Source: a virus (Duplodnaviria; Heunggongvirae; Uroviricota; Caudoviricetes). Taken from it: a DNA stretch of 64,000 nt. The notes under the pieces were generated by a model that made no database searches, was not told the DNA's origin, and saw only the letters and a program-made list of their open reading frames with translations. The DNA lies in IMG/VR virus record IMGVR_UViG_2974574300_000001, positions 1 through 64,000 of that record; one strand, written 5' to 3'. Positions 573 through 6,821 of the stretch are shown here, piece after piece; position 1 is the first letter of the stretch; each line of letters opens with the position of its first letter. A program made the position numbers and the translations under genes.

Positions 573-1988
573 ATGAGCGAATTATTTAAACATGCGCACC
601 TTCATGCAGGTCGAACTGAAAATGGTGCTGTAAACCATACTTCATCAATGTCTGCTCTTGTAGACTTTTACAAAGCTGCTGGTTCGAGTCGTAGCAATGT
701 AGAAATCTTACCAGACCTGTTCTACAAAGCTTTGCGTGAGGATGTTGATGTTGCAGTTCGTATTTTACTGCATATGCGAGATGTACGAGAAGGTATGGGT
801 GAGCGTAAAGCCTTCAGAACTGTTTTGCTTCAAGCAATTGAAGATAAAGTTTTAGAACCTACACAGGTTCTTCGCATTATGGATAAGATTGCAGAACTTG
901 GTCGTTTTGATGACTTCAAAATCTTCGTAGGTACTCGTTTCGAGACAGATGCCTTCAAACATTTAGAAGCAGCATTACTAGACCCTGCAACAGCAGGTTT
1001 GGCAGCTAAGTGGTTACCACGAGTCAAACCACGTCATAAGCAGTTTGTAAAACGTTTCTGTAAGTTTGCCAACTTGAGTGAGAAAGATTATCGCACACTG
1101 TTGTCTGCGCTCTCTGATACAGTTGAGCAAAAAATCTCTGCTAATGAGTTTGGTAAGATTGACTACAGTAAGATTCCTTCACTTGCTGCTGCACGTTACC
1201 AAAAACTGTTTAACCGCAAAGATGGAGAACGCTACAAAGCTTACATCGAGTCCTTATCAAAGGGTGAGACTAAGATTAATGCTGGTGCTGTTTACCCATA
1301 CGATGTGATTAAGTCTGTTAAGTATGGTAATGCAGATGTTGCTAATGAGCAGTGGAAAGCACTACCAAACTGGATGGCAGAGGGTGAAAACATCTTATGT
1401 ATGACTGATGTTTCAAGCTCAATGTCTTGGGTGAATTTTGGTTCAATCACTGCTCTTGATATTGGCGTATCACTTGCCTTGTATGTAGCAGAACGCAATA
1501 CAGGTTGCTTTAAGGATGAGTTGATGGTTTATTCAACAAACCCTCACTTCATTGAACTGAGTGGTGATTTACGAAACCGTCATCGTCAGGTGATGCGACA
1601 CGTTGAATATGGCTCAACTAACTTACAAGCAGCTTTTGAACGCATTCTTGAGATAGGTAAGAGAAACAACTTGACTCAGAAAGATATGCCAAGTAAGCTT
1701 ATCATCTTCTCCGATATGGAGTTCAATCAGGTTGATGGAGCTAACGGTCGTACAAACTTTGAAGCAATTCAGAGTAAGTACAAGAAAGCTGGATACGAAA
1801 TGCCACAACTGGTATTCTGGTACTTAGCAAACCGTAATGGTACTTGCGAAGTATCTGTTAAGGATAACGGTGTAGCAATGGTATCTGGTTTCTCTCCAGC
1901 CACTTTAAAAGCTCTGCTTGGTGGTGAGAAGTTTGACCCAATCAGCGTAATGCTCAAAGCAGTAATGATTGACCGTTATATCTGGTAA
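573..1988 (+). CDS. vWA-domain protein with MIDAS motif (Ro60/TROVE-like or DUF2828-like candidate)
   Basis: 471 aa ORF; helical N-terminal half then DVSSSM (DxSxS MIDAS) and downstream acidic IIFSDMEF strand typical of von Willebrand A fold. Confidence 0.6.
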   Translation: MSELFKHAHLHAGRTENGAVNHTSSMSALVDFYKAAGSSRSNVEILPDLFYKALREDVDVAVRILLHMRDVREGMGERKAFRTVLLQAIEDKVLEPTQVLRIMDKIAELGRFDDFKIFVGTRFETDAFKHLEAALLDPATAGLAAKWLPRVKPRHKQFVKRFCKFANLSEKDYRTLLSALSDTVEQKISANEFGKIDYSKIPSLAAARYQKLFNRKDGERYKAYIESLSKGETKINAGAVYPYDVIKSVKYGNADVANEQWKALPNWMAEGENILCMTDVSSSMSWVNFGSITALDIGVSLALYVAERNTGCFKDELMVYSTNPHFIELSGDLRNRHRQVMRHVEYGSTNLQAAFERILEIGKRNNLTQKDMPSKLIIFSDMEFNQVDGANGRTNFEAIQSKYKKAGYEMPQLVFWYLANRNGTCEVSVKDNGVAMVSGFSPATLKALLGGEKFDPISVMLKAVMIDRYIW

Positions 1989-2006: not shown

Positions 2007-2035
2007 TTGACAATGTGTTTGATACCCTTTAATAT
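2007..2035 (+). promoter_or_regulatory. sigma70-like promoter (TTGACA-17-TAATAT) overlapped by GGGTAT/ATACCC inverted repeat
   Basis: TTGACA at 2007-2012, 17 nt spacer, TAATAT at 2030-2035, immediately upstream of tRNA array. Confidence 0.6.
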
Positions 2036-2097
2036 GTTCTACATAGAAACGAAACGAGAGCTTTTCTAAGATACTGAAAAATATTTTAAAAAAGTTC

Positions 2098-2127
2098 TTG
2101 ACAATCACTAAAAAATAATGTTAAAGT
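2098..2127 (+). promoter_or_regulatory. possible sigma70-like promoter (TTGACA-17-TTAAAG)
   Basis: TTGACA at 2098-2103; weaker -10 element. Confidence 0.35.
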
Positions 2128-2153: not shown

Positions 2154-2230
2154 CTCTGTTTAGCTCAGCTTGGTAGAGCGTTCCGTTTGGGGCGGTAAGG
2201 CCGGAGGTTCAAGTCCTCCAACAGAGACCA
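2154..2230 (+). tRNA. tRNA-Pro (anticodon TGG)
   Basis: 7 bp acceptor CTCTGTT/AACAGAG, D-arm GCTC..GAGC, anticodon loop TTTGGGG, T-arm GGAGG-TTCAAGT-CCTCC, encoded CCA. Confidence 0.75.
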
Positions 2231-2237
2231 AATTAAT

Positions 2238-2315
2238 GTTCCAGTAGACAAAATGGTATAGTCACCACTCTTTCAAAGTGGATATTTGAGGGTTCAAATC
2301 CCTTCTGGAACGCCA
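2238..2315 (+). tRNA. tRNA-Glu (anticodon TTC)
   Basis: acceptor GTTCCAG/CTGGAAC, anticodon stem CCACT/AGTGG loop CTTTCAA, T-arm GAGGG-TTCAAAT-CCCTT, CCA. Confidence 0.7.
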
Positions 2316-2406
2316 GTTTTGACAGAAGACCAATTACAGCAAACTTAATCTTATTCATCTGAAGGTAAATCGGACAAAGAAGAGATTTGGTCTGGTCATT
2401 AAGAAT

Positions 2407-2483
2407 TGCGGGTATAGAGAAAGGGCGTCTCACATGTCTCATTAGCATGGTATCGGCAGGTTCGACTCCTGCACCCGCCTCCA
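2407..2483 (+). tRNA. tRNA-Met (anticodon CAT)
   Basis: anticodon stem CATGT/GCATG loop CTCATTA, T-arm GCAGG-TTCGACT-CCTGC, acceptor with 1:72 mismatch, CCA. Confidence 0.6.
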
Positions 2484-2566
2484 AATTTACAGAAGACCGT
2501 TTACAGCAATATTTATTAAATTTTTAGCGGAAAAATTGAAAGATACGGTCTGGTAATACTAAACAT

Positions 2567-2643
2567 GGTTAGGAAGCACATAAGGTATGTGCGGTCGCCT
2601 GTTAAGCGAATGGCACAGGGTTCGAATCCCTGACTAACCGCCA
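2567..2643 (+). tRNA. tRNA-Asn (anticodon GTT)
   Basis: acceptor GGTTAGG/ACTAACC, D-stem GCAC/GTGC, anticodon loop CTGTTAA, T-arm CAGGG-TTCGAAT-CCCTG, CCA. Confidence 0.7.
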
Positions 2644-2712
2644 AATTTAGGAGAGAAGCGATTGCTCACCGATTTGTAAGGTGCAAGTCCTTAGCCTGAA
2701 TAGAAATTAAAT

Positions 2713-2800
2713 GTGTCGTTATCCCGTAGATGGTAGCGGTGGGGACTGTAAATCCCTTGTCATTGAGACTCGGTAGGTTCGACTCCTACACGGCACACCA
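2713..2800 (+). tRNA. tRNA-Tyr (anticodon GTA), long variable arm
   Basis: acceptor GTGTCGT/ACGGCAC, anticodon stem GGGGA/TCCCT loop CTGTAAA, long variable arm, T-arm GTAGG-TTCGACT-CCTAC, CCA. Confidence 0.7.
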
Positions 2801-2805
2801 ATAAA

Positions 2806-2882
2806 GGTTATGTAGTTTAATTTGGTTAAAATACTCCCTGTCACGGGAGATGATGAGGGTTCAAATCCCTTCGTAACCGCCA
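2806..2882 (+). tRNA. tRNA-Asp (anticodon GTC)
   Basis: acceptor GGTTATG/CGTAACC, canonical Asp anticodon loop CTGTCAC (weak stem), T-arm GAGGG-TTCAAAT-CCCTT, CCA. Confidence 0.6.
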
Positions 2883-3310
2883 ATTTTGAGAGGGCTATTT
2901 AGCCCCTCCCTTAAAGAGTTCTTACGAGTATTCTTTAAAGGAGCAGAAGACCAAATTCAGCAAGTTACTTAAAATTTCAAGCCAATTTAATTTTGAAAAA
3001 TTTAAAACTTGGTCTGGCTCAACAAATTTACAGAAGACCATTTACAGCAAAACTTAAACAATCTATTTCTCGGTAAAGAAAAGGAGAAGGTTCGATTCCT
3101 TCACTCGGCAGGTGTCGAGTTGGTGTAATGGTAGCACTTAAGATGATAAACAACGGTCTGGTAATTATCTTTGTAGATAAGTTATTAAGCTTACCTGTGA
3201 GTATGCGACCACAAAGGGTGAAAGGGTAAATTCTAGATTTAAACCCAAAAAGGCACATCGCTACAGACCTTAAGCAAGTCTGGGTAGCTTATCTACAAAG
3301 ATAATTTAAT

Positions 3311-3386
3311 GGAAGTGTAGCAGAATGGTGATGCGGCAGACTTTTAATCTGACAGGCGATGGGTTCGAATCCCTCCACTTCTACCA
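3311..3386 (+). tRNA. tRNA-Lys (anticodon TTT)
   Basis: acceptor GGAAGTG/CACTTCT, anticodon loop CTTTTAA, T-loop TTCGAAT, CCA. Confidence 0.65.
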
Positions 3387-3390
3387 ATAT

Positions 3391-3467
3391 GGTTCAGTCG
3401 CAGATAAGGTAATGCAAGGGTCTCATAAGCCCTATGAATGTGGGTTCGATTCCCATCTGAACCTCCA
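3391..3467 (+). tRNA. tRNA-Met or tRNA-Ile2 (anticodon CAT)
   Basis: acceptor GGTTCAG/CTGAACC, anticodon stem AGGGT/GCCCT loop CTCATAA, T-arm GTGGG-TTCGATT-CCCAT, CCA. Confidence 0.7.
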
Positions 3468-3469
3468 AT

Positions 3470-3544
3470 TGTGGGTTAGCATAAATGGTAATGCAAACGG
3501 CTGATAACCGTTAGAAGAGGGTTCGATACCCTCACCTACAACCA
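3470..3544 (+). tRNA. tRNA-Ile (anticodon GAT)
   Basis: acceptor TGTGGGT/ACCTACA, anticodon stem AACGG/CCGTT loop CTGATAA, T-arm GAGGG-TTCGATA-CCCTC, CCA. Confidence 0.7.
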
Positions 3545-3559
3545 ATTTCAATAAAGTTG

Positions 3560-3588
3560 TTGACATTGAGATGTGACTACTTTATAGT
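3560..3588 (+). promoter_or_regulatory. sigma70-like promoter (TTGACA-17-TATAGT) inside tRNA array
   Basis: TTGACA 3560-3565, 17 nt spacer, TATAGT 3583-3588. Confidence 0.6.
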
Positions 3589-3880
3589 AACTAAAATACT
3601 TCAGAATATGTATAATTCAAACACCAATACATGAGCGTTAGACGTAACACAATGTGGGGAAATTTGTTGTACATATTCTGAATAGTTTTCGTTGCGTAGC
3701 GTCTATTTTGCAAATTTAAAATAAATGCAAACGACAATGTTTTTCTGGCAGTAGCTTGATAGGCTAAACACCAGTGAGGTCTTCCAATCCCTCATCAAAG
3801 AATTTGGCGTACTAGCCACGGTATGATTAATAAGGTGGGCATCTTTAAGGGCTTTCTAAGAGAGTCTTTAAAGATAATTA

Positions 3881-3962
3881 CGGGGCGTATCTCAGCGGTC
3901 TTCTAAACCGCCGTTAACCGAGTAAGTGGAGTATGCGGGTTCGAGTCCTGCCGCCTCGACCA
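3881..3962 (+). tRNA. non-canonical tRNA-like gene (anticodon-like hairpin with TCT, no clear D-arm)
   Basis: acceptor CGGGGCG/CGCCTCG, T-arm GCGGG-TTCGAGT-CCTGC, CCA; only a 5 bp/7 nt hairpin GCGGT-CTTCTAA-ACCGC placed where the D-arm should be, followed by 23 nt extra region. Confidence 0.45.
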
Positions 3963-4104
3963 ATTAGTTAGCAGATTACTTAGACGACCTAAGCGGGTCT
4001 TCCTGTAGGGAGGTGGTCTGTATCTCATGTTTTCCAGAACATGTAAATAATCTGAGAAGGGGCTTTACAGTGTTGAGATAATACGGTAAGCTTCGAATTA
4101 TAGT

Positions 4105-4187
4105 ATGGGACGATGTTAAGACTCTAAGGCATGAGCAACGGCTTCCAACACCGTTTCAAAGGGGTTCAACTCCTCCGTCCCATGCCA
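4105..4187 (+). tRNA. non-canonical tRNA-like gene (aberrant D region; anticodon uncertain, possibly CCA)
   Basis: perfect 7 bp acceptor ATGGGAC/GTCCCAT, T-loop TTCAACT, CCA; 26 nt between acceptor and candidate anticodon hairpin ACGGC-TTCCAAC-ACCGT. Confidence 0.45.
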
Positions 4188-4200
4188 AAGTCTTATTAGG

Positions 4201-4288
4201 GGTAGGTAGCGGCTAATGGTAGCCAAACTGTCTTGAAAACAGTTGCCACTGTAGAGATACGGTGAGGGTTCGACTCCTTTACTTACCG
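4201..4288 (+). tRNA. tRNA-Ser (anticodon TGA), type II
   Basis: acceptor GGTAGGT/ACTTACC, 3 bp D-stem, anticodon stem ACTGT/ACAGT loop CTTGAAA, long variable arm, T-loop TTCGACT; CCA not fully encoded. Confidence 0.7.
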
Positions 4289-4545
4289 CCTAATAAGATT
4301 TAAAGCCAAGCTTCATTCGGATGTTGCTTTGGTATCCCTCGTGTATTGTCGTACACACTGATAAAACACCTAGTAGGTGTCACGGAGAAGAGATAATATC
4401 AAGCTCTCCAAAGGTTCTAGTCACCGGATTAAACAAGACTATGCAAAGACCTTTTTAGGTCTTTTTAGAGGGCTTCTAAGGTTATTACAGCTTGTTGTGG
4501 AACCTTGTTGCTTAGGTTCTTAGAAGTTCTCTAAAAAGATTTAAT

Positions 4546-4623
4546 GGGAGATTGACGGTAATTGGTAAACCTACCTCGCTTAGAACGAGGTGTTTGAGGG
4601 TTCGAATCCCTTGTCTCCTACCA
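4546..4623 (+). tRNA. tRNA with anticodon TAG (Leu by anticodon) but short variable arm
   Basis: acceptor GGGAGAT/GTCTCCT, anticodon stem CCTCG/CGAGG loop CTTAGAA, 5 nt variable loop, T-arm GAGGG-TTCGAAT-CCCTT, CCA. Confidence 0.6.
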
Positions 4624-4630
4624 AATTAAT

Positions 4631-4706
4631 GCAGGTGTAGCAAAATGGTTATGCGGCTGACTCTTAATCAGTAAGACGATGGGTTCAATTCCCTCCACCT
4701 GTACCA
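4631..4706 (+). tRNA. tRNA-Lys (anticodon CTT)
   Basis: acceptor GCAGGTG/CACCTGT, anticodon loop CTCTTAA, T-loop TTCAATT, CCA; paralog of 3311-3386. Confidence 0.6.
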
Positions 4707-4712
4707 AACATT

Positions 4713-4788
4713 GGGGATGTAGTTTACATGGTTAAAACATAAGTTTTGCAAACTTGGGAACTGAGTTCAATTCTCAGTGACTCCACCA
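4713..4788 (+). tRNA. tRNA-Ala (anticodon TGC)
   Basis: G3:U70 in acceptor, anticodon stem TAAGT/ACTTG loop TTTGCAA, T-arm CTGAG-TTCAATT-CTCAG, CCA. Confidence 0.6.
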
Positions 4789-4794
4789 ATTAGT

Positions 4795-4869
4795 GCATCC
4801 ATAGTTTAAACGGGAAAATTACAGTCTTCCAAACTGAGGTTGAGGGTTCGATTCCCTCTGGATGCTCCA
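4795..4869 (+). tRNA. tRNA-Trp (anticodon CCA)
   Basis: acceptor GCATCCA/TGGATGC, anticodon loop CTTCCAA, T-arm GAGGG-TTCGATT-CCCTC, CCA. Confidence 0.7.
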
Positions 4870-4875
4870 AACAAT

Positions 4876-4952
4876 GCTGCTTTCGTATAATTGGCTATTA
4901 CACATCCCTTGTAAGGATGGAAATGCAGGTTCGAGTCCTGTGAGCAGCACCA
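4876..4952 (+). tRNA. tRNA-Thr (anticodon TGT)
   Basis: acceptor GCTGCTT/GAGCAGC, anticodon stem CATCC/GGATG loop CTTGTAA, T-arm GCAGG-TTCGAGT-CCTGT, CCA. Confidence 0.7.
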
Positions 4953-5047
4953 ATTCAGAGGTCAAGTGAAAGACCGCTGGTGTCAACTGAAGACCGTAAC
5001 AAATTCCACGGAGTTGAGTTAGCGGCACAACTTCAGACCTCTTTCAC

Positions 5048-5122
5048 ACTCGCTTAGTTTATATGGTAAAACATCACCCTTACAAGATGAAGAAAAAGGT
5101 TCAAGTCCTTTAGTGAGTACCA
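5048..5122 (+). tRNA. tRNA-Val (anticodon TAC)
   Basis: acceptor ACTCGCT/AGTGAGT, D-stem GTTT/AAAC, anticodon loop CTTACAA, T-arm AAAGG-TTCAAGT-CCTTT, CCA. Confidence 0.65.
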
Positions 5123-5123
5123 T

Positions 5124-5202
5124 GTTCCAGTATCCCAATTGGCAGAGAGGCCAGACTTAAAATCTGTGTTATGTATCGGTTCGAATCCGATATGGAGTAC
5201 CA
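5124..5202 (+). tRNA. tRNA with anticodon TAA (Leu by anticodon), short variable arm
   Basis: acceptor GTTCCAG/ATGGAGT (6 of 7 pairs), anticodon stem CCAGA/TCTGT loop CTTAAAA, T-arm ATCGG-TTCGAAT-CCGAT, CCA. Confidence 0.5.
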
Positions 5203-5207
5203 ATTTT

Positions 5208-5283
5208 AGCGGTATAGCATAACTGGCAATGCAGCAGTCTCTGAAGCTGTCCTATTAAGGTTCAAATCCTTATGCCGCTGCCA
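5208..5283 (+). tRNA. tRNA-Gln (anticodon CTG)
   Basis: acceptor AGCGGTA/TGCCGCT, anticodon loop CTCTGAA, T-arm TAAGG-TTCAAAT-CCTTA, CCA. Confidence 0.6.
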
Positions 5284-5314
5284 CTTCTAAGGGTTCTTAC
5301 GAGAGTCCTTAAAT

Positions 5315-5390
5315 GTGGCCTTATCATAAACGGTAATGACCCATGCTGTGAACATGGTCTATACGGGTTCAAATCCCGTAGGTCACCCCA
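5315..5390 (+). tRNA. tRNA-His (anticodon GTG)
   Basis: acceptor GTGGCCT/AGGTCAC, discriminator C, anticodon stem CCATG/CATGG loop CTGTGAA, T-arm ACGGG-TTCAAAT-CCCGT, CCA. Confidence 0.7.
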
Positions 5391-5396
5391 ATTTAT

Positions 5397-5472
5397 AGTC
5401 CAAGTAGCTTATATGGTTAAAGCGCGTGTCTGAAAAACATGAGAAGAGGGTTCAAATCCCACTGGACTACCA
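5397..5472 (+). tRNA. tRNA-Phe (anticodon GAA)
   Basis: D-stem GCTT/AAGC, anticodon stem CGTGT/ACATG loop CTGAAAA, T-loop TTCAAAT, CCA. Confidence 0.65.
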
Positions 5473-5489
5473 ATTTTCAAAGGTGCTTA

Positions 5490-6224
5490 ATGAAAGAGAT
5501 GACAGGACAAGGTAAGGAGATTTTTAATCTCTTAAAAACCGGTAAAGGGTTTTCTAACCCACTTATTACTGGTGCAGTAGTTCTCGGTGGAACCGTAGCT
5601 GCCTCTACATCACTTGTAAGCTCTATTAGCTCTGTAACAGACCCTACAATGAAGGAGAAGCTTGTTGCTGCTGGACTCACAACAGTCCTTCTAAACAGCT
5701 TTACAACAAGCCTGACAAGCACTACAGCAACTACTAAGACCCTAACAGACTATGGTCAAAAGTCTATTGATGAGTTTTCATCACGTATGCAGGTAGCAAA
5801 GGGGTATTCCAATGTTATGGGTGCAGCAGGAGAACAAGTTGGTTGTACACCATTTAGTGGTATTATGGGTGTTGCTACAGAGTATGGTCAGCAAGCTATT
5901 GACACGATTAACAGCACACTAGACAGTGTTAACGGTGTGTTAAGTGACTTACAAGACGCTATTGATAAGGGTCTTGATACTGTTTCTGATTTAGCTAACC
6001 AAGCTGTTAGCAAGATTAATGAAGGTATCTCAAAGATTACAGCTTATGCAGATGAAGTTGTGCAGATGATTGAAGAAGAAGCTGCCCTTATTGCAGAGTA
6101 CCTTAAAACGAATATCAATGGGTTCTTAGCAGGTATCTTACCAGACTGGTTTGATGATGCTTGGAAAACTGGTGTAATCGACACTATTGCAACACCAGAA
6201 ATGAAGAACGCATTACAGAAATAA
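5490..6224 (+). CDS. hypothetical protein (Ser/Thr-rich N-terminal half)
   Basis: ORF track 5439-6224 trimmed to first ATG after tRNA-Phe; AGGTG RBS. Confidence 0.5.
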   Translation: MKEMTGQGKEIFNLLKTGKGFSNPLITGAVVLGGTVAASTSLVSSISSVTDPTMKEKLVAAGLTTVLLNSFTTSLTSTTATTKTLTDYGQKSIDEFSSRMQVAKGYSNVMGAAGEQVGCTPFSGIMGVATEYGQQAIDTINSTLDSVNGVLSDLQDAIDKGLDTVSDLANQAVSKINEGISKITAYADEVVQMIEEEAALIAEYLKTNINGFLAGILPDWFDDAWKTGVIDTIATPEMKNALQK

Positions 6225-6225
6225 T

Positions 6226-6318
6226 GGAAGATTAACCCTAAAAGGTAAGGGAGCAGTTTGCTAAACTGCCAGTAGCTGAGAAATCGGTGTACCAGTTCAA
6301 GTCTGGTATCTTCCTCCA
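6226..6318 (+). tRNA. tRNA-Ser (anticodon GCT), type II
   Basis: perfect acceptor GGAAGAT/ATCTTCC, 3 bp D-stem CCC/GGG, anticodon stem GCAGT/ACTGC loop TTGCTAA, long variable arm, T-arm ACCAG-TTCAAGT-CTGGT, CCA. Confidence 0.75.
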
Positions 6319-6322
6319 ATCT

Positions 6323-6398
6323 GAATCCGTGACAGAAATGGATATGTGCCTGTCTGCAAAACAGGTTTATAAGGGTTCAAGTCCCTTCGGATTCTCCA
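6323..6398 (+). tRNA. tRNA-Cys (anticodon GCA)
   Basis: acceptor GAATCCG/CGGATTC, anticodon stem CCTGT/ACAGG loop CTGCAAA, T-arm AAGGG-TTCAAGT-CCCTT, CCA. Confidence 0.75.
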
Positions 6399-6435
6399 AG
6401 TTATTTTACTCTCTCTCAATTAAAATAATAATAAT

Positions 6436-6495
6436 GCCCTGCTATAAGTATTCTTCCTTTCGCTACCGAAGAGTATTTTTAGACAGGGCTTTTTT
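6436..6495 (+). terminator. long hairpin followed by T6 (possible terminator after tRNA array)
   Basis: GCCCTG ... CAGGGC closing stem with nested AGTATTCTTC/GAAGAGTATT stem, then TTTTTT. Confidence 0.4.
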
Positions 6496-6560
6496 ACAGA
6501 GTTATACTTTATAGGAAGACTTATACAGTATGTCTCTGACGTACATTGTGGTTTCTCCTT

Positions 6561-6586
6561 GACGGTCTCTGTGCCGTCTTTTTTAA
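6561..6586 (+). terminator. rho-independent terminator
   Basis: GACGG-TCTCTGTG-CCGTC hairpin followed by TTTTTT. Confidence 0.65.
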
Positions 6587-6620
6587 GGGGAAACAAGATT
6601 TATTATTTGGAGAAAACATA

Positions 6621-6821
6621 ATGAGCGAGAACGTTTATAAAGAACTTTATGAAGCTAACAAGAAGTTAGAGTTTATGCAGAATACTATCATGGCAATTGC
6701 AGACAGATTATCTGTAGCAACAGGCATTGATATTAAAGAAGCATCTATGGATGCACTTCTTGATGCTGTTGATGCAAAGTTCGAAGTTAAGAAAGAAGAG
6801 ACTGCGACAGACTCTGAATAA
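6621..6821 (+). CDS. small hypothetical protein upstream of terminase
   Basis: 67 codon ORF with GGAG RBS; position directly before large terminase. Confidence 0.45.
   Translation: MSENVYKELYEANKKLEFMQNTIMAIADRLSVATGIDIKEASMDALLDAVDAKFEVKKEETATDSE

What the first reader, a model, noticed from the sequence alone, without database searches (positions are those of the whole stretch)
2316..3170. Repeated structured spacer modules between tRNA genes with compensatory base changes
Four spacers share CAGAAGACC-(N4-5)-T(T/A)CAGCAA at one end and GGTCTGG at the other: about 2321-2400, 2487-2560, 2944-3020, 3029-3170. The flanks co-vary so that they remain complementary (GACCAA with TTGGTC, GACCG with CGGTC). 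That pattern argues for a conserved RNA stem, possibly a processing signal or small RNA family.
Basis: seen in the sequence. Interest (0 to 1): 0.6.

Follow-up and report, generated by a model that had tools for sequence, protein, structure and literature searches.

The report
Phage Y-RNA-like partners of Ro60-like protein
The four repeated spacers in this Felix O1-type phage tRNA array are a real, structurally conserved small-RNA family that always travels with a neighbouring Ro60-like gene (DUF2828) in many phages, and that combines features of bacterial Y RNAs and of the enigmatic Class I RNAs of social amoebae.

Summary
Four modules (2320-2398, 2487-2556, 2941-3020, 3028-3164, + strand) share an outer 4-bp stem, an AGA/G internal loop, an inner 7-bp stem, (U/A)U(A/U)CAGCAA, a variable domain, then the 3' strands. 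Pairing is kept by compensatory changes in relatives (10 of 11 pairs).

Long copies, including module 4, hold a tRNA-like domain in the order V arm, T arm, closed acceptor stem, D arm. That is the topology of bacterial YrlA Y RNAs. Short copies align end to end with Rfam's Dictyostelium Class I RNA model, but below its threshold.

Best reading: these are Y-RNA-like ligands of a divergent Ro60-like protein, released from the tRNA transcript. Binding and function are inferred, not shown. I found no published description.

The parts
573..1988 (+). Gene for a 471-aa Ro60-like protein (Pfam DUF2828 + DUF7788; PHROG 850 'RNA-binding protein'). It is the proposed protein partner of the modules.
2007..2127 (+). 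Two sigma-70-like promoters (2007-2035 and 2098-2127) between the Ro60-like gene and the first tRNA. They probably drive the tRNA/module transcript.
   Evidence: Consensus scan matches 10 of 12 positions for each. These are pattern matches only; no transcription was measured.
2320..2398 (+). Module 1 (short type), between tRNA-Glu and tRNA-Met. Outer stem 2320-2323/2395-2398; 5' AGA 2324-2326; inner stem 2327-2333/2387-2393; UUACAGCAA 2334-2342; unpaired G 2394.
   Evidence: Model R1 scores 47.6 bits, E 1e-12. Rfam RF01414 scores 19.7 bits over the full model.
2487..2556 (+). Module 2 (short type), between tRNA-Met and tRNA-Asn. Outer stem 2487-2490/2553-2556; inner stem 2494-2500/2545-2551; UUACAGCAA 2501-2509.
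   Evidence: R1 scores 49.0 bits. RF01414 scores 20.1 bits, aligned end to end. In orthologues the outer stem switches from UUAC/GUAA to UUGC/GCAA.
2941..3020 (+). Module 3 (short type). Outer stem 2941-2944/3017-3020; inner stem 2948-2954/3009-3015; AUUCAGCAA 2955-2963.
   Evidence: R1 scores 44.5 bits.
3028..3164 (+). Module 4 (long type). It has the same closing stems (3028-3031/3161-3164 and 3035-3041/3153-3159, with one A.C mismatch in this phage) and UUACAGCAA at 3042-3050. These enclose a tRNA-like domain.
   Evidence: RNAalifold on 9 long modules recovers the closing stem, T arm, closed acceptor-like stem and D arm; 16 of 23 pairs are compensatory.
3066..3137 (+). tRNA-like domain of module 4. 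V hairpin 3066-3081; T arm 3086-3102 (GAAGG-UUCGAUU-CCUUC); closed acceptor-like stem 3103-3120 (ACUCGGC-AGGU-GUCGAGU); D arm 3123-3137 (GUGU-AAUGGUA-GCAC).
   Evidence: Read from the sequence. All 7 acceptor-like pairs, and pairs in the T and D arms, show compensatory changes. Equivalent domains in relatives hit Rfam YrlA at 37.7-40.9 bits, E 1e-7 to 6e-7. The window copy itself gives no YrlA hit.

Best explanation
The four modules are genes for small structured non-coding RNAs that work like Y RNAs. They are transcribed with the tRNAs from the promoters at about 2007-2127. They would be set free when RNase P and the 3'-end machinery trim the flanking tRNAs, since each module nearly fills its spacer. 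The terminal stems would protect them from exonucleases.

Their shared core is the proposed docking site for the Ro60-like protein encoded just upstream (573-1988). That core is (A)AG + 5 bp, 3 nt with a central U, single-stranded CAGCAA, and the 3' strand ending CU-G.

The variable inner domain is the effector part: a simple hairpin in modules 1-3 and a tRNA mimic in module 4. By analogy with Ro60/Rsr-Y RNA particles, it would tether or gate the protein ring towards other RNAs or enzymes. The most likely role is surveillance, repair or decay of tRNA-like RNAs during infection.

Shown here:
- the RNA structure and its covariation;
- the tRNA-like topology of the long form;
- the Ro60 fold of the modelled protein;
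- the tight, strand-specific genomic linkage between motif and gene across very diverse phages.

Inferred:
- that discrete RNAs accumulate;
- that the protein binds them;
- what the particle does.
For: Structure:
- 97% of cells pair and 10 of 11 pairs are compensatory; no shuffle and no slid register comes close.
- A structure-blind alignment gives the same helices.

Protein:
- Foldseek's top 12 PDB hits are all Ro60.
- The MIDAS motif is invariant.

Linkage:
- Model R1 gives 21 hits at E<=1 in 642 kb of DUF2828 loci, mostly within about 100 nt of the gene. It gives 2 hits in 751 kb of unrelated viral loci.
- The strict descriptor gives 75 hits on the gene strand, 4 on the opposite strand and 1.8 in shuffles. 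49 of 75 loci have a copy within 700 nt of the gene.
- In GTDB contigs the count is 70 against 3.
- Tandem arrays of short and long copies abut the gene in L127, L130, L160 and L230.
- Erwinia phage phiEa104 lacks both the gene and the modules despite 26 tRNAs.

tRNA mimicry:
- One search recovers the tRNA-like arms.
- Rfam YrlA hits reach 37.7-40.9 bits in relatives.
- The arm order V-T-AS-D is the one described for YrlA (PMC4201824).

Precedent: phage Ro60 proteins bind Y-like RNAs encoded beside their gene and recruit host PNPase (PMC12135203).

Features the descriptor did not impose are still conserved: G after the 3' stem in 84%, the central linker U in 79%, A before the stem in 60%.
Against: - No expression, end-mapping or binding data exist for any of these RNAs. 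I found none in the paper library.
- The protein gives no Pfam TROVE or NCBIfam hit, and sequence-profile hits to Ro60 are insignificant (E 0.45). The Ro60 assignment therefore rests on a predicted structure.
- The canonical Ro60-binding motif of bacterial Y RNAs (GNCGAA / CGAA in a bulged helix) is absent.
- Module 4 of this window does not reach any Rfam YrlA score. The relatives' hits stay below the family threshold of 69 bits.
- 26 of 75 DUF2828 loci had no strict-descriptor hit near the gene.
- Copies immediately upstream of the start codon in some phages could be cis-regulatory leaders rather than free RNAs.
Confidence: 0.7

Rival explanations
1. The modules are only cis-acting processing signals. 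Their stems would guide RNase III, RNase E or RNase P cuts that separate neighbouring tRNAs, and the excised pieces would be discarded.
For: The modules lie between tRNAs and nearly fill the spacers: 3-4 nt from the upstream tRNA and 8-10 nt from the next. The outer 4-bp stem is found in the tRNA-array copies (Felix-like phages, L127, L129, L130) but is not evident in the mini copies beside the gene. It might therefore aid processing.
Against: - Most tRNA junctions in this array have no module.
- phiEa104, with 26 tRNAs, has none.
- In many phages the motif sits beside the DUF2828 gene, away from any tRNA junction. Examples are the 5' leaders in L145, L139, L151, L131 and L200.
- A conserved single-stranded 9-mer and an embedded, covarying tRNA mimic are not needed for a cleavage site.
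Confidence: 0.1
2. The motif is mainly a cis-regulatory operator. The Ro60-like protein would bind the AAG-stem-UACAGCAA element in its own mRNA leader to control its translation. The copies in the tRNA array would be titrating decoys or relics.
For: In L145, L139, L151, L131 and L200 a 34-41-nt mini copy ends 8-15 nt before the start codon, directly before the ribosome-binding site. 13 of 75 hits lie within 300 nt upstream of the gene.
Against: - In this window and all Felix-like phages, no copy precedes the gene. All four lie downstream of it, behind separate promoters.
- More hits lie downstream of the gene than upstream: 30 within 300 nt.
- Arrays of 3-5 copies, including tRNA-like ones, are hard to explain as operators.
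- This reading still requires protein-RNA binding, so it is a variant of the main explanation rather than a true alternative.
Confidence: 0.08
3. The modules act independently of the neighbouring protein. They would be tRNA mimics or sponges that decoy host tRNA-targeting defence nucleases or tRNA-modifying enzymes.
For: Module 4 and its relatives mimic tRNA. They lie in tRNA arrays. Some DUF2828 loci carry RNA-repair genes: T4 Rnl1-type ligase and a metallophosphatase in L132, PTH2 in L131.
Against: - Three of the four modules here, and most family members, have no tRNA-like part. Only 28 of 194 hits carry a T-loop.
- The invariant part is the closing stem plus UACAGCAA, not the tRNA mimic.
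- Linkage to the DUF2828 gene is strand-specific and near-universal.
Confidence: 0.06
4. The modules are DNA-level repeats: miniature mobile elements with terminal inverted repeats, or homing-endonuclease targets, spreading within tRNA arrays.
For: They are repeated, bounded by inverted repeats and variable inside. Relatives carry HNH endonuclease genes inserted between tRNAs.
Against: - The strand bias is extreme: 75 against 4, and 70 against 3.
- The 'terminal repeats' differ between copies yet stay complementary, including G-U pairs, which DNA recognition would not preserve.
- The modules are orthologous and syntenic across genera, with no presence/absence polymorphism typical of mobile elements.
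- HNH insertions in Felix O1 lie elsewhere in the array.
Confidence: 0.02
5. The conserved core is a small self-cleaving ribozyme that cuts the tRNA precursor.
For: It is a compact conserved core (AAG/CUG junction plus UACAGCAA) in a polycistronic RNA that must be cut. I saw a loose resemblance by eye of ACAG-AGAA-GAC to loop A of the hairpin ribozyme; this was my own reading and was not tested.
Against: - No ribozyme family of Rfam 15 matches, even at E<=10.
- The second domain of a hairpin ribozyme and its N*GUC site are absent.
- The same core occurs in mRNA leaders, where self-cleavage would separate the ribosome-binding site from its promoter.
Confidence: 0.03

Closest known systems
Bacterial and phage Y RNAs, especially YrlA (Rfam RF02553), with Ro60/Rsr (Chen et al. 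2014, PMC4201824; Thermus phage phiLo Ro60-Yrl, PMC12135203)
   Same: - They are encoded next to a Ro60-type gene, often in several copies.
- The 5' and 3' ends pair into a stem interrupted by an internal loop.
- The long form carries a tRNA-like domain in the same order: V arm, T arm, closed acceptor-like stem, D arm.
- A short form without the tRNA mimic exists alongside it, as YrlB does beside YrlA.
- Relatives' long modules hit the YrlA model at 37.7-40.9 bits.
   Different: - The protein belongs to another sequence family (DUF2828/DUF7788) with no TROVE Pfam hit.
- The Ro-binding motif GNCGAA/CGAA is replaced by AAG-stem-N-U-N-CAGCAA...CUG.
- All YrlA scores are below the gathering threshold of 69 bits, and the window's own module 4 scores nothing.
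- The RNAs are embedded in a phage tRNA array.
Class I RNAs of dictyostelid social amoebae (Rfam RF01414; Kjellin et al. 2021, PMC7919456)
   Same: - The architecture is the same from end to end. It starts (A)AG, has a terminal stem of 6-7 bp whose sequence varies but whose pairing is kept, and carries the single-stranded motif (CC)UUACAGCAA directly 3' of the 5' strand. A variable A/U-rich interior follows, and it ends CUG(U).
- The size of the short form is similar (34-83 nt against 42-65 nt).
- There are many paralogues per genome.
- RF01414 is the only Rfam family that aligns the short modules over its whole length.
   Different: - Scores are 15.7-26.8 bits, against a gathering threshold of 41.5.
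- The phage spacing between the conserved G and CAGCAA is 1 nt shorter.
- Class I RNAs have their own promoters (DUSE) and are reported only in Dictyostelia.
- Their known direct binder is an RRM protein (Rnp1A/CIBP), not a Ro60-like protein.
- No Class I RNA is reported to carry a tRNA-like domain.
- Homology and convergence cannot be told apart here.
Ro60 / TROVE proteins (Xenopus Ro60 1YVP, Deinococcus Rsr 2NVO, phage phiLo Ro60 9KOP/9L5Y), compared with the partner protein
   Same: The predicted fold matches over the whole length: a helical-repeat ring plus a C-terminal vWA domain with an intact MIDAS motif.
   Different: Sequence identity is 10-17%. There is no significant sequence or profile match. 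The protein is shorter (471 aa against about 530). RNA binding has not been tested.

Membership tests
Y RNA / YrlA (RF02553) | Encoded adjacent to a Ro60 (TROVE) orthologue | tested here: inconclusive
Y RNA / YrlA (RF02553) | 5' and 3' ends pair into a stem that carries the Ro-binding motif GNCGAA(N)G / CGAA in a bulged helix | tested here: not met
   A terminal stem with an internal loop is present and covaries. The CGAA motif is absent; the conserved elements are CAGAAG... and UACAGCAA.
Y RNA / YrlA (RF02553) | tRNA-like domain in the order V, T, closed acceptor stem, D | tested here: met
   Met for module 4 and 8 relatives: RNAalifold finds 16 of 23 pairs compensatory. The order matches the description in PMC4201824. 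Modules 1-3 lack this domain.
Y RNA / YrlA (RF02553) | Score at or above the Rfam gathering threshold (69 bits) | tested here: not met
   The window's module 4 gives no hit at E<=10. Relatives score 25.8-40.9 bits.
Y RNA / YrlA (RF02553) | Bound by the Ro60 protein in vivo | not testable with these tools
   This needs immunoprecipitation or EMSA.
Dictyostelium Class I RNA (RF01414) | Short terminal stem joining the 5' and 3' ends, with pairing conserved but sequence not | tested here: met
   The stem has 7 bp. 6 of 7 pairs show double changes, and every pair except the fixed G-C takes 6 pair types across 194 hits.
Dictyostelium Class I RNA (RF01414) | 11-nt motif CCUUACAGCAA directly 3' of the 5' stem strand (U3, C6, C9, A10, A11 nearly invariant) | tested here: met
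   UUACAGCAA or AUUCAGCAA is present in all four modules. Natural variants in the family (CCGCAA, CAGCAU) keep C6, C9 and A10. Two differences remain: the first two C's are stem or linker residues here, and the spacing is 1 nt shorter.
Dictyostelium Class I RNA (RF01414) | Conserved termini: 5' (A)AG and 3' CUG(U), with the G pairing with the C | tested here: inconclusive
   The sequences AAG...CUG flank the stem in the same register: G-C is fixed, A precedes it in 60-67% and G follows in 84%. The true RNA ends are unknown, and in Felix-like phages a further outer stem lies beyond them.
Dictyostelium Class I RNA (RF01414) | Score at or above the Rfam gathering threshold (41.5 bits) | tested here: not met
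   Window modules score 19.7 and 20.1 bits. The best relatives score 26.3-26.8 bits. One triple array (L233) gave no hit.
Dictyostelium Class I RNA (RF01414) | Dictyostelid origin with a DUSE promoter about 60 nt upstream | tested here: not met
   The sequence is a Salmonella/E. coli phage. The modules lie inside a tRNA operon behind sigma-70-like promoters.
Ro60 / TROVE protein family (partner gene) | Ring of helical repeats plus a vWA domain with MIDAS | tested here: met
Ro60 / TROVE protein family (partner gene) | Significant match to the TROVE sequence profile (PF05731) | tested here: not met
   Pfam reports only DUF2828 and DUF7788, even at E<=10. Profile hits to PDB Ro60 have E 0.45-1.
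Canonical tRNA gene (module 4) | Open acceptor stem with 5' and 3' ends, and an anticodon arm with a 7-nt loop | tested here: not met
   ARAGORN does not call it. The Rfam tRNA model matches only the T arm and 3' acceptor strand, at 13 bits. The acceptor stem is closed by a 4-nt loop, and the anticodon position is replaced by the module's closing stems.

The most novel reading that the evidence does not exclude
The phage RNAs and the Class I RNAs of Dictyostelium may be one ancient RNA class whose cognate protein is the DUF2828 Ro60-like family. That family is also reported in eukaryotes and giant viruses of amoebae.

If so, Class I RNAs would not be a dictyostelid invention tied to multicellularity. 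They would be the amoebal branch of a Ro/Y-like ribonucleoprotein system shared with thousands of phages. Their unknown function would then become testable through a DUF2828 homologue.

One candidate is DDB_G0281243, the uncharacterised protein pulled down with Class I RNA DdR-21 (preprint 10.1101/2020.04.05.026054). I could not check whether Dictyostelium has a DUF2828 protein at all.
Probability: 0.3. Interest if true: 0.9.

Novelty: new variant of a known kind. Interest (0 to 1): 0.8.

Why it matters
DUF2828 proteins form a very large, uncharacterised family, mostly in phages: 8,843 clusters at 50% identity. Databases label them only 'RNA-binding protein' or 'hypothetical'. This analysis gives them a predicted fold (Ro60) and a specific, easily recognised candidate RNA ligand encoded beside the gene. 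Together these define a Ro/Y-like particle that sits in or next to phage tRNA arrays and, in some phages, next to RNA-repair genes.

That makes three things directly testable:
- what these phages do to tRNA-like RNAs during infection;
- how Ro60-type rings recognise a motif quite different from the classical CGAA helix;
- whether the Class I RNAs of social amoebae, whose function has been open since 2004 and which were reported as unique to Dictyostelia, belong to the same system.

It also shows that 'spacers' in phage tRNA clusters can be genes. Some genome records currently annotate them as small hypothetical ORFs, for example SUSP2.

Tried and rejected
- Exact-motif scan of IMG/VR. It returned mostly single chance hits; only Felix-like contigs had 2-4 copies. 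The exact sequence is lineage-specific, so a structural search was needed.
- Rfam at permissive thresholds. No family reaches its gathering score. I first dismissed the weak Dicty_Class_I_RNA hits as noise and returned to them.
- Resemblances I considered by eye and dropped because defining elements are missing: hairpin-ribozyme loop A, a kink-turn (no tandem G.A on the opposite strand), and the bulge-helix-bulge motif of permuted or split tRNAs (only one asymmetric loop).
- Module 4 as a circularly permuted tRNA gene needing circularisation. I replaced this with the simpler YrlA-type reading: the acceptor stem is closed by a loop and there is no anticodon loop.
- A fifth copy at 4986. Rejected.
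- Sequence-based link of the protein to Ro60. phmmer and hmmsearch against PDB were not significant, and NCBIfam gave nothing.
- The AlphaFold-database fold search, which could have listed eukaryotic and Dictyostelium homologues, was unavailable.
- Avesson et al. 2011 could not be read. The supplements of Kjellin et al. do not mention DDB_G0281243 or DUF2828. Searches for DUF2828, PF11443 and DDB_G0281243 found nothing relevant.
- No transcriptome of a Felix O1-like phage turned up.
- My first loose descriptors had high false-positive rates (6-29 per 64 kb). I used them only to locate candidates, not as evidence.
Full report
**What is there.** The window is a Felix O1-type myophage (Felixounavirus). 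It is 99.9% identical over 2.5 kb to Salmonella phage FM4b and 97% identical to Felix O1. A tRNA array of 22 ARAGORN-called genes runs from 2154 to 6398 on the + strand. None is expected by chance. Each copy is followed by GGTCTGG.

**Anatomy of the modules.** Each module has:
- an outer 4-bp stem (UGAC/GUCA, UUAC/GUAA, GAGC/GCUC, UUAC/GUAA);
- an internal loop, AGA on the 5' side and G on the 3' side;
- an inner 7-bp stem (AGACCNN/NNGGUCU);
- a 3-nt linker and CAGCAA, both unpaired;
- a variable interior, and then the two 3' strands.

The limits are 2320-2398, 2487-2556, 2941-3020 and 3028-3164. Modules 1 and 2 almost fill their tRNA-tRNA spacers. In this phage module 4 has one A.C mismatch where Felix O1, SUSP2 and Maleficent have a G-C pair.

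**Is the pairing conserved?** Yes. Orthologous modules exist in three genera of Ounavirinae: Felixounavirus, Suspvirus and Mooglevirus. They also exist in more distant phages whose neighbouring protein is only 47-63% identical.
- In Yersinia phage P778 the inner stem is GGACUGU/ACAGUCC instead of AGACCGU/ACGGUCU.
- In other contigs it is AGAAGCU, AGUAUCU, AGUGUCU, AGUAGCU and so on, always complementary.
- On 23 module cores, 97.2% of cells pair and 10 of 11 pairs have changes on both sides.
- The covariation score is 0.765, against 0.21 +/- 0.03 in shuffles (0 of 500 reach it) and at most 0.15 when the 3' partners are slid by 1-3 columns.
- That alignment was anchored with knowledge of the stems. 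I therefore repeated the test without it: MAFFT plus RNAalifold on 19 full-length modules with flanks. It predicts exactly the same two helices, again with 10 of 11 pairs compensatory.

**The neighbouring gene.** Immediately upstream of the array lies a 471-aa ORF (573-1988, + strand).
- Pfam sees only DUF2828 and DUF7788.
- PHROGs calls it 'RNA-binding protein', as does RefSeq for Felix O1 ORF42.
- An AlphaFold2 model built on 30 homologues has pLDDT 84 and pTM 0.85.
- The 12 best Foldseek PDB matches are all Ro60/TROVE structures, aligned over the full length.
- The MIDAS residues DxSxS...T...D are invariant in the family.
- By sequence the link to Ro60 is not significant. The fold assignment therefore rests on the model.
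- The family is large: 8,843 clusters at 50% identity.

**The motif follows the gene.** I built a covariance model of the module core (R1).
- In the window it finds only the four modules.
- In 642 kb around 75 diverse DUF2828 genes from IMG/VR it finds 21 hits at E<=1. Most are on the gene strand and within about 100 nt of the gene.
- In 751 kb of unrelated viral contigs it finds 2 hits.

The sequences reveal a minimal form, 34-60 nt long: AAG, 5 bp, 3 nt, CAGCAA, a loop, 5 bp, CUG. It often lies directly before the ribosome-binding site of the gene or just after its stop codon, and often in tandem.

I then used a strict descriptor: perfect 7-bp stem, a fixed G-C second pair, and CAGCAA at fixed spacing.
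- It gives 75 hits on the gene strand, 4 on the opposite strand and 1.8 in shuffled sequence.
- 49 of 75 loci have a copy within 700 nt of the gene.
- In GTDB contigs carrying the gene the count is 70 against 3.
- Features the descriptor did not demand are conserved too: G right after the 3' strand (84%), the central U of the linker (79%), A before the stem (60%), and a G-poor interior.
- Conversely, Erwinia phage phiEa104, an Ounavirinae member with 26 tRNAs, lacks both the gene and the modules.

**The long form is a tRNA mimic.** Module 4 contains four elements in order:
- a small hairpin;
- a T arm (GAAGG-UUCGAUU-CCUUC);
- a 7-bp stem closed by a 4-nt loop (ACUCGGC-AGGU-GUCGAGU);
- a D arm (GUGU-AAUGGUA-GCAC).

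RNAalifold on nine long modules from five phages recovers the closing stem, T arm, closed stem and D arm. 16 of 23 pairs are compensatory, including all seven of the closed stem. This order (V, T, closed acceptor stem, D) is the one described for bacterial YrlA Y RNAs, which are encoded beside Ro60 genes in 254 bacteria and 22 phages (PMC4201824). Long modules of relatives hit Rfam YrlA at 40.9, 39.2 and 37.7 bits (E 1e-7 to 6e-7). These scores are below the threshold of 69 bits. The window's own copy gives no hit. The Ro-binding CGAA motif of Y RNAs is absent.

**The short form looks like an amoebal Class I RNA.** Dicty_Class_I_RNA (RF01414) is the only Rfam family that aligns the short modules over its whole model.
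- Window modules 1 and 2 score 19.7-20.1 bits. Relatives score up to 26.8 bits (E 0.009). The threshold is 41.5 bits.
- The Rfam consensus is GaUcuC-CUUACAGCAA-...-GagAuC-UG.
- Kjellin et al. 2021 (PMC7919456) describe Class I RNAs as starting AAG and having a 6-bp terminal stem with many compensatory changes. The 11-nt motif CCUUACAGCAA sits next to the 5' strand, the interior is variable, and the end is CUGU.
- The phage core has the same parts in the same order, with spacing 1 nt shorter.
- The same paper reports no Class I RNA outside Dictyostelia.
- Pull-down partners of Class I RNA DdR-21 were GuaB, NdkC, the RRM protein CIBP/Rnp1A and an uncharacterised protein, DDB_G0281243.
- I could not determine whether Dictyostelium has a DUF2828 protein. 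DUF2828 is reported in mimivirus-like sequences.

**How it most likely works.** Two sigma-70-like promoters lie between the gene and the first tRNA, so the modules are probably co-transcribed with the tRNAs and released by tRNA end-processing. This is inference. I propose that the closing stem plus the unpaired UACAGCAA is the binding site of the Ro60-like protein, and that the interior is an effector domain: a hairpin, or a tRNA mimic in module 4. This follows Ro60/Rsr-Y RNA particles, in which the Y RNA tethers the ring to PNPase and gates access to its cavity. A phage Ro60 has been shown to bind two Y-like RNAs encoded beside its gene and to assemble with host PNPase (PMC12135203). The setting suggests a role in quality control, repair or turnover of tRNA-like RNAs during infection. 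That setting is tRNA arrays in most loci, and a T4 Rnl1-type ligase, a metallophosphatase or PTH2 next door in some. Binding, RNA ends and function are all untested.

**Rivals.**
- Pure processing signals do not explain the linkage to the gene, the leader copies, or the absence from other tRNA junctions.
- A purely cis-regulatory operator fits the leader copies in some phages. It does not fit Felix-like phages, where all copies lie downstream behind their own promoters.
- DNA-level mobile repeats are contradicted by the strand bias and by G-U-tolerant compensatory pairing.
- A ribozyme has no support from Rfam.

**Novelty and limits.** I found no paper linking Felix O1, DUF2828 or these motifs to Ro60, Y RNAs or Class I RNAs. 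Known phage Y-like RNAs are in mycobacteriophages, CcrColossus, Bacillus phage G and phiLo. The library lacks most subscription journals, so prior description cannot be excluded. I class the finding as a new variant of a known kind: a Ro60/Y-RNA-type gene-RNA pair in which both the protein family and the RNA recognition motif differ from the canonical ones. The link to Class I RNAs is a resemblance in every defining feature that I could test by sequence, but it lies below the family's score threshold. It may reflect homology or convergence.

Noticed in passing
window 3162-3308 (+): Directly after module 4 lies a 147-nt element with a 24-bp closing stem (22-nt arms, 95% complementary) around three small hairpins. 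MFE is -48.3 kcal/mol and z = -6.75 against shuffles. No Rfam hit. It looks like another structured RNA gene in the array.
   Followed up: partly
window 3881-3962 and 3487-3879 (+): A tRNA-like sequence with a T arm and a 7-bp acceptor stem. ARAGORN does not call it, and it gives weak Rfam tmRNA hits (22.1 bits; also tmRNA_permuted at 24.9 bits for 3487-3759). A strong promoter-like site (11 of 12) lies at 3560-3588. It could be a degenerate tRNA or a tmRNA-like RNA.
   Followed up: no
window 4100-4192 (+): A second uncalled tRNA-like element: a 10-bp terminal stem, a T-arm-like hairpin, and z = -2.5.
   Followed up: no
window 4953-5047 (+): The spacer between tRNA-Thr and tRNA-Val folds into one long nested hairpin (z = -2.96). 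It contains CTGAAGACCGT, which resembles the module 5' end, but it has no CAGCAA and is not a family member.
   Followed up: partly
window 2806-2882 (+): ARAGORN reads this tRNA with a four-base anticodon (gtca). Relatives annotate it as tRNA-Asp, and Rfam scores it 54 bits as a normal tRNA.
   Followed up: no
window 2644-2712 and 2883-2943 (+): Two further spacers fold better than shuffles (z = -2.6 and -3.1). The second holds two hairpins just before module 3, one of them G+C-rich (GAGAGGGCUAUUUAGCCCCUC).
   Followed up: no
L121 (Felix O1) 3986-4471, 4959-5351, 6269-6682; L123 5186-5638: Relatives carry HNH homing-endonuclease ORFs inserted between tRNA genes at places where this window has none. 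The array is a hot spot for such insertions.
   Followed up: no
L132 3279-4391 and 6842-7555; L131 3769-4152; L127 and L130 upstream genes: In other phages the DUF2828 gene is flanked by a T4 Rnl1-type RNA ligase and a metallophosphatase, by a PTH2 peptidyl-tRNA hydrolase, or by NAD-salvage genes (NAPRTase, PRPP synthetase, NadR-like). This fits an RNA/tRNA-repair neighbourhood.
   Followed up: no
L145 1763-1796, L139 3953-3987, L151 2858-2891, L131 4951-4991, L200 3907-3943: Mini copies of the motif (34-41 nt) end 8-15 nt before the DUF2828 start codon, directly before the ribosome-binding site. This hints at autoregulation of the protein by its own RNA motif.
   Followed up: partly
L130 4231-4305; L127 11393-12652: One related phage contig encodes a tRNA with a CUA anticodon, a possible amber suppressor. 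Another carries an IS605 OrfB/TnpB-type gene near its tRNA array.
   Followed up: no
L122 (SUSP2) 2941-3111: The deposited annotation places a 'hypothetical protein' CDS over the region of module 2 and a tRNA. This is probably a mis-annotation of non-coding sequence.
   Followed up: no
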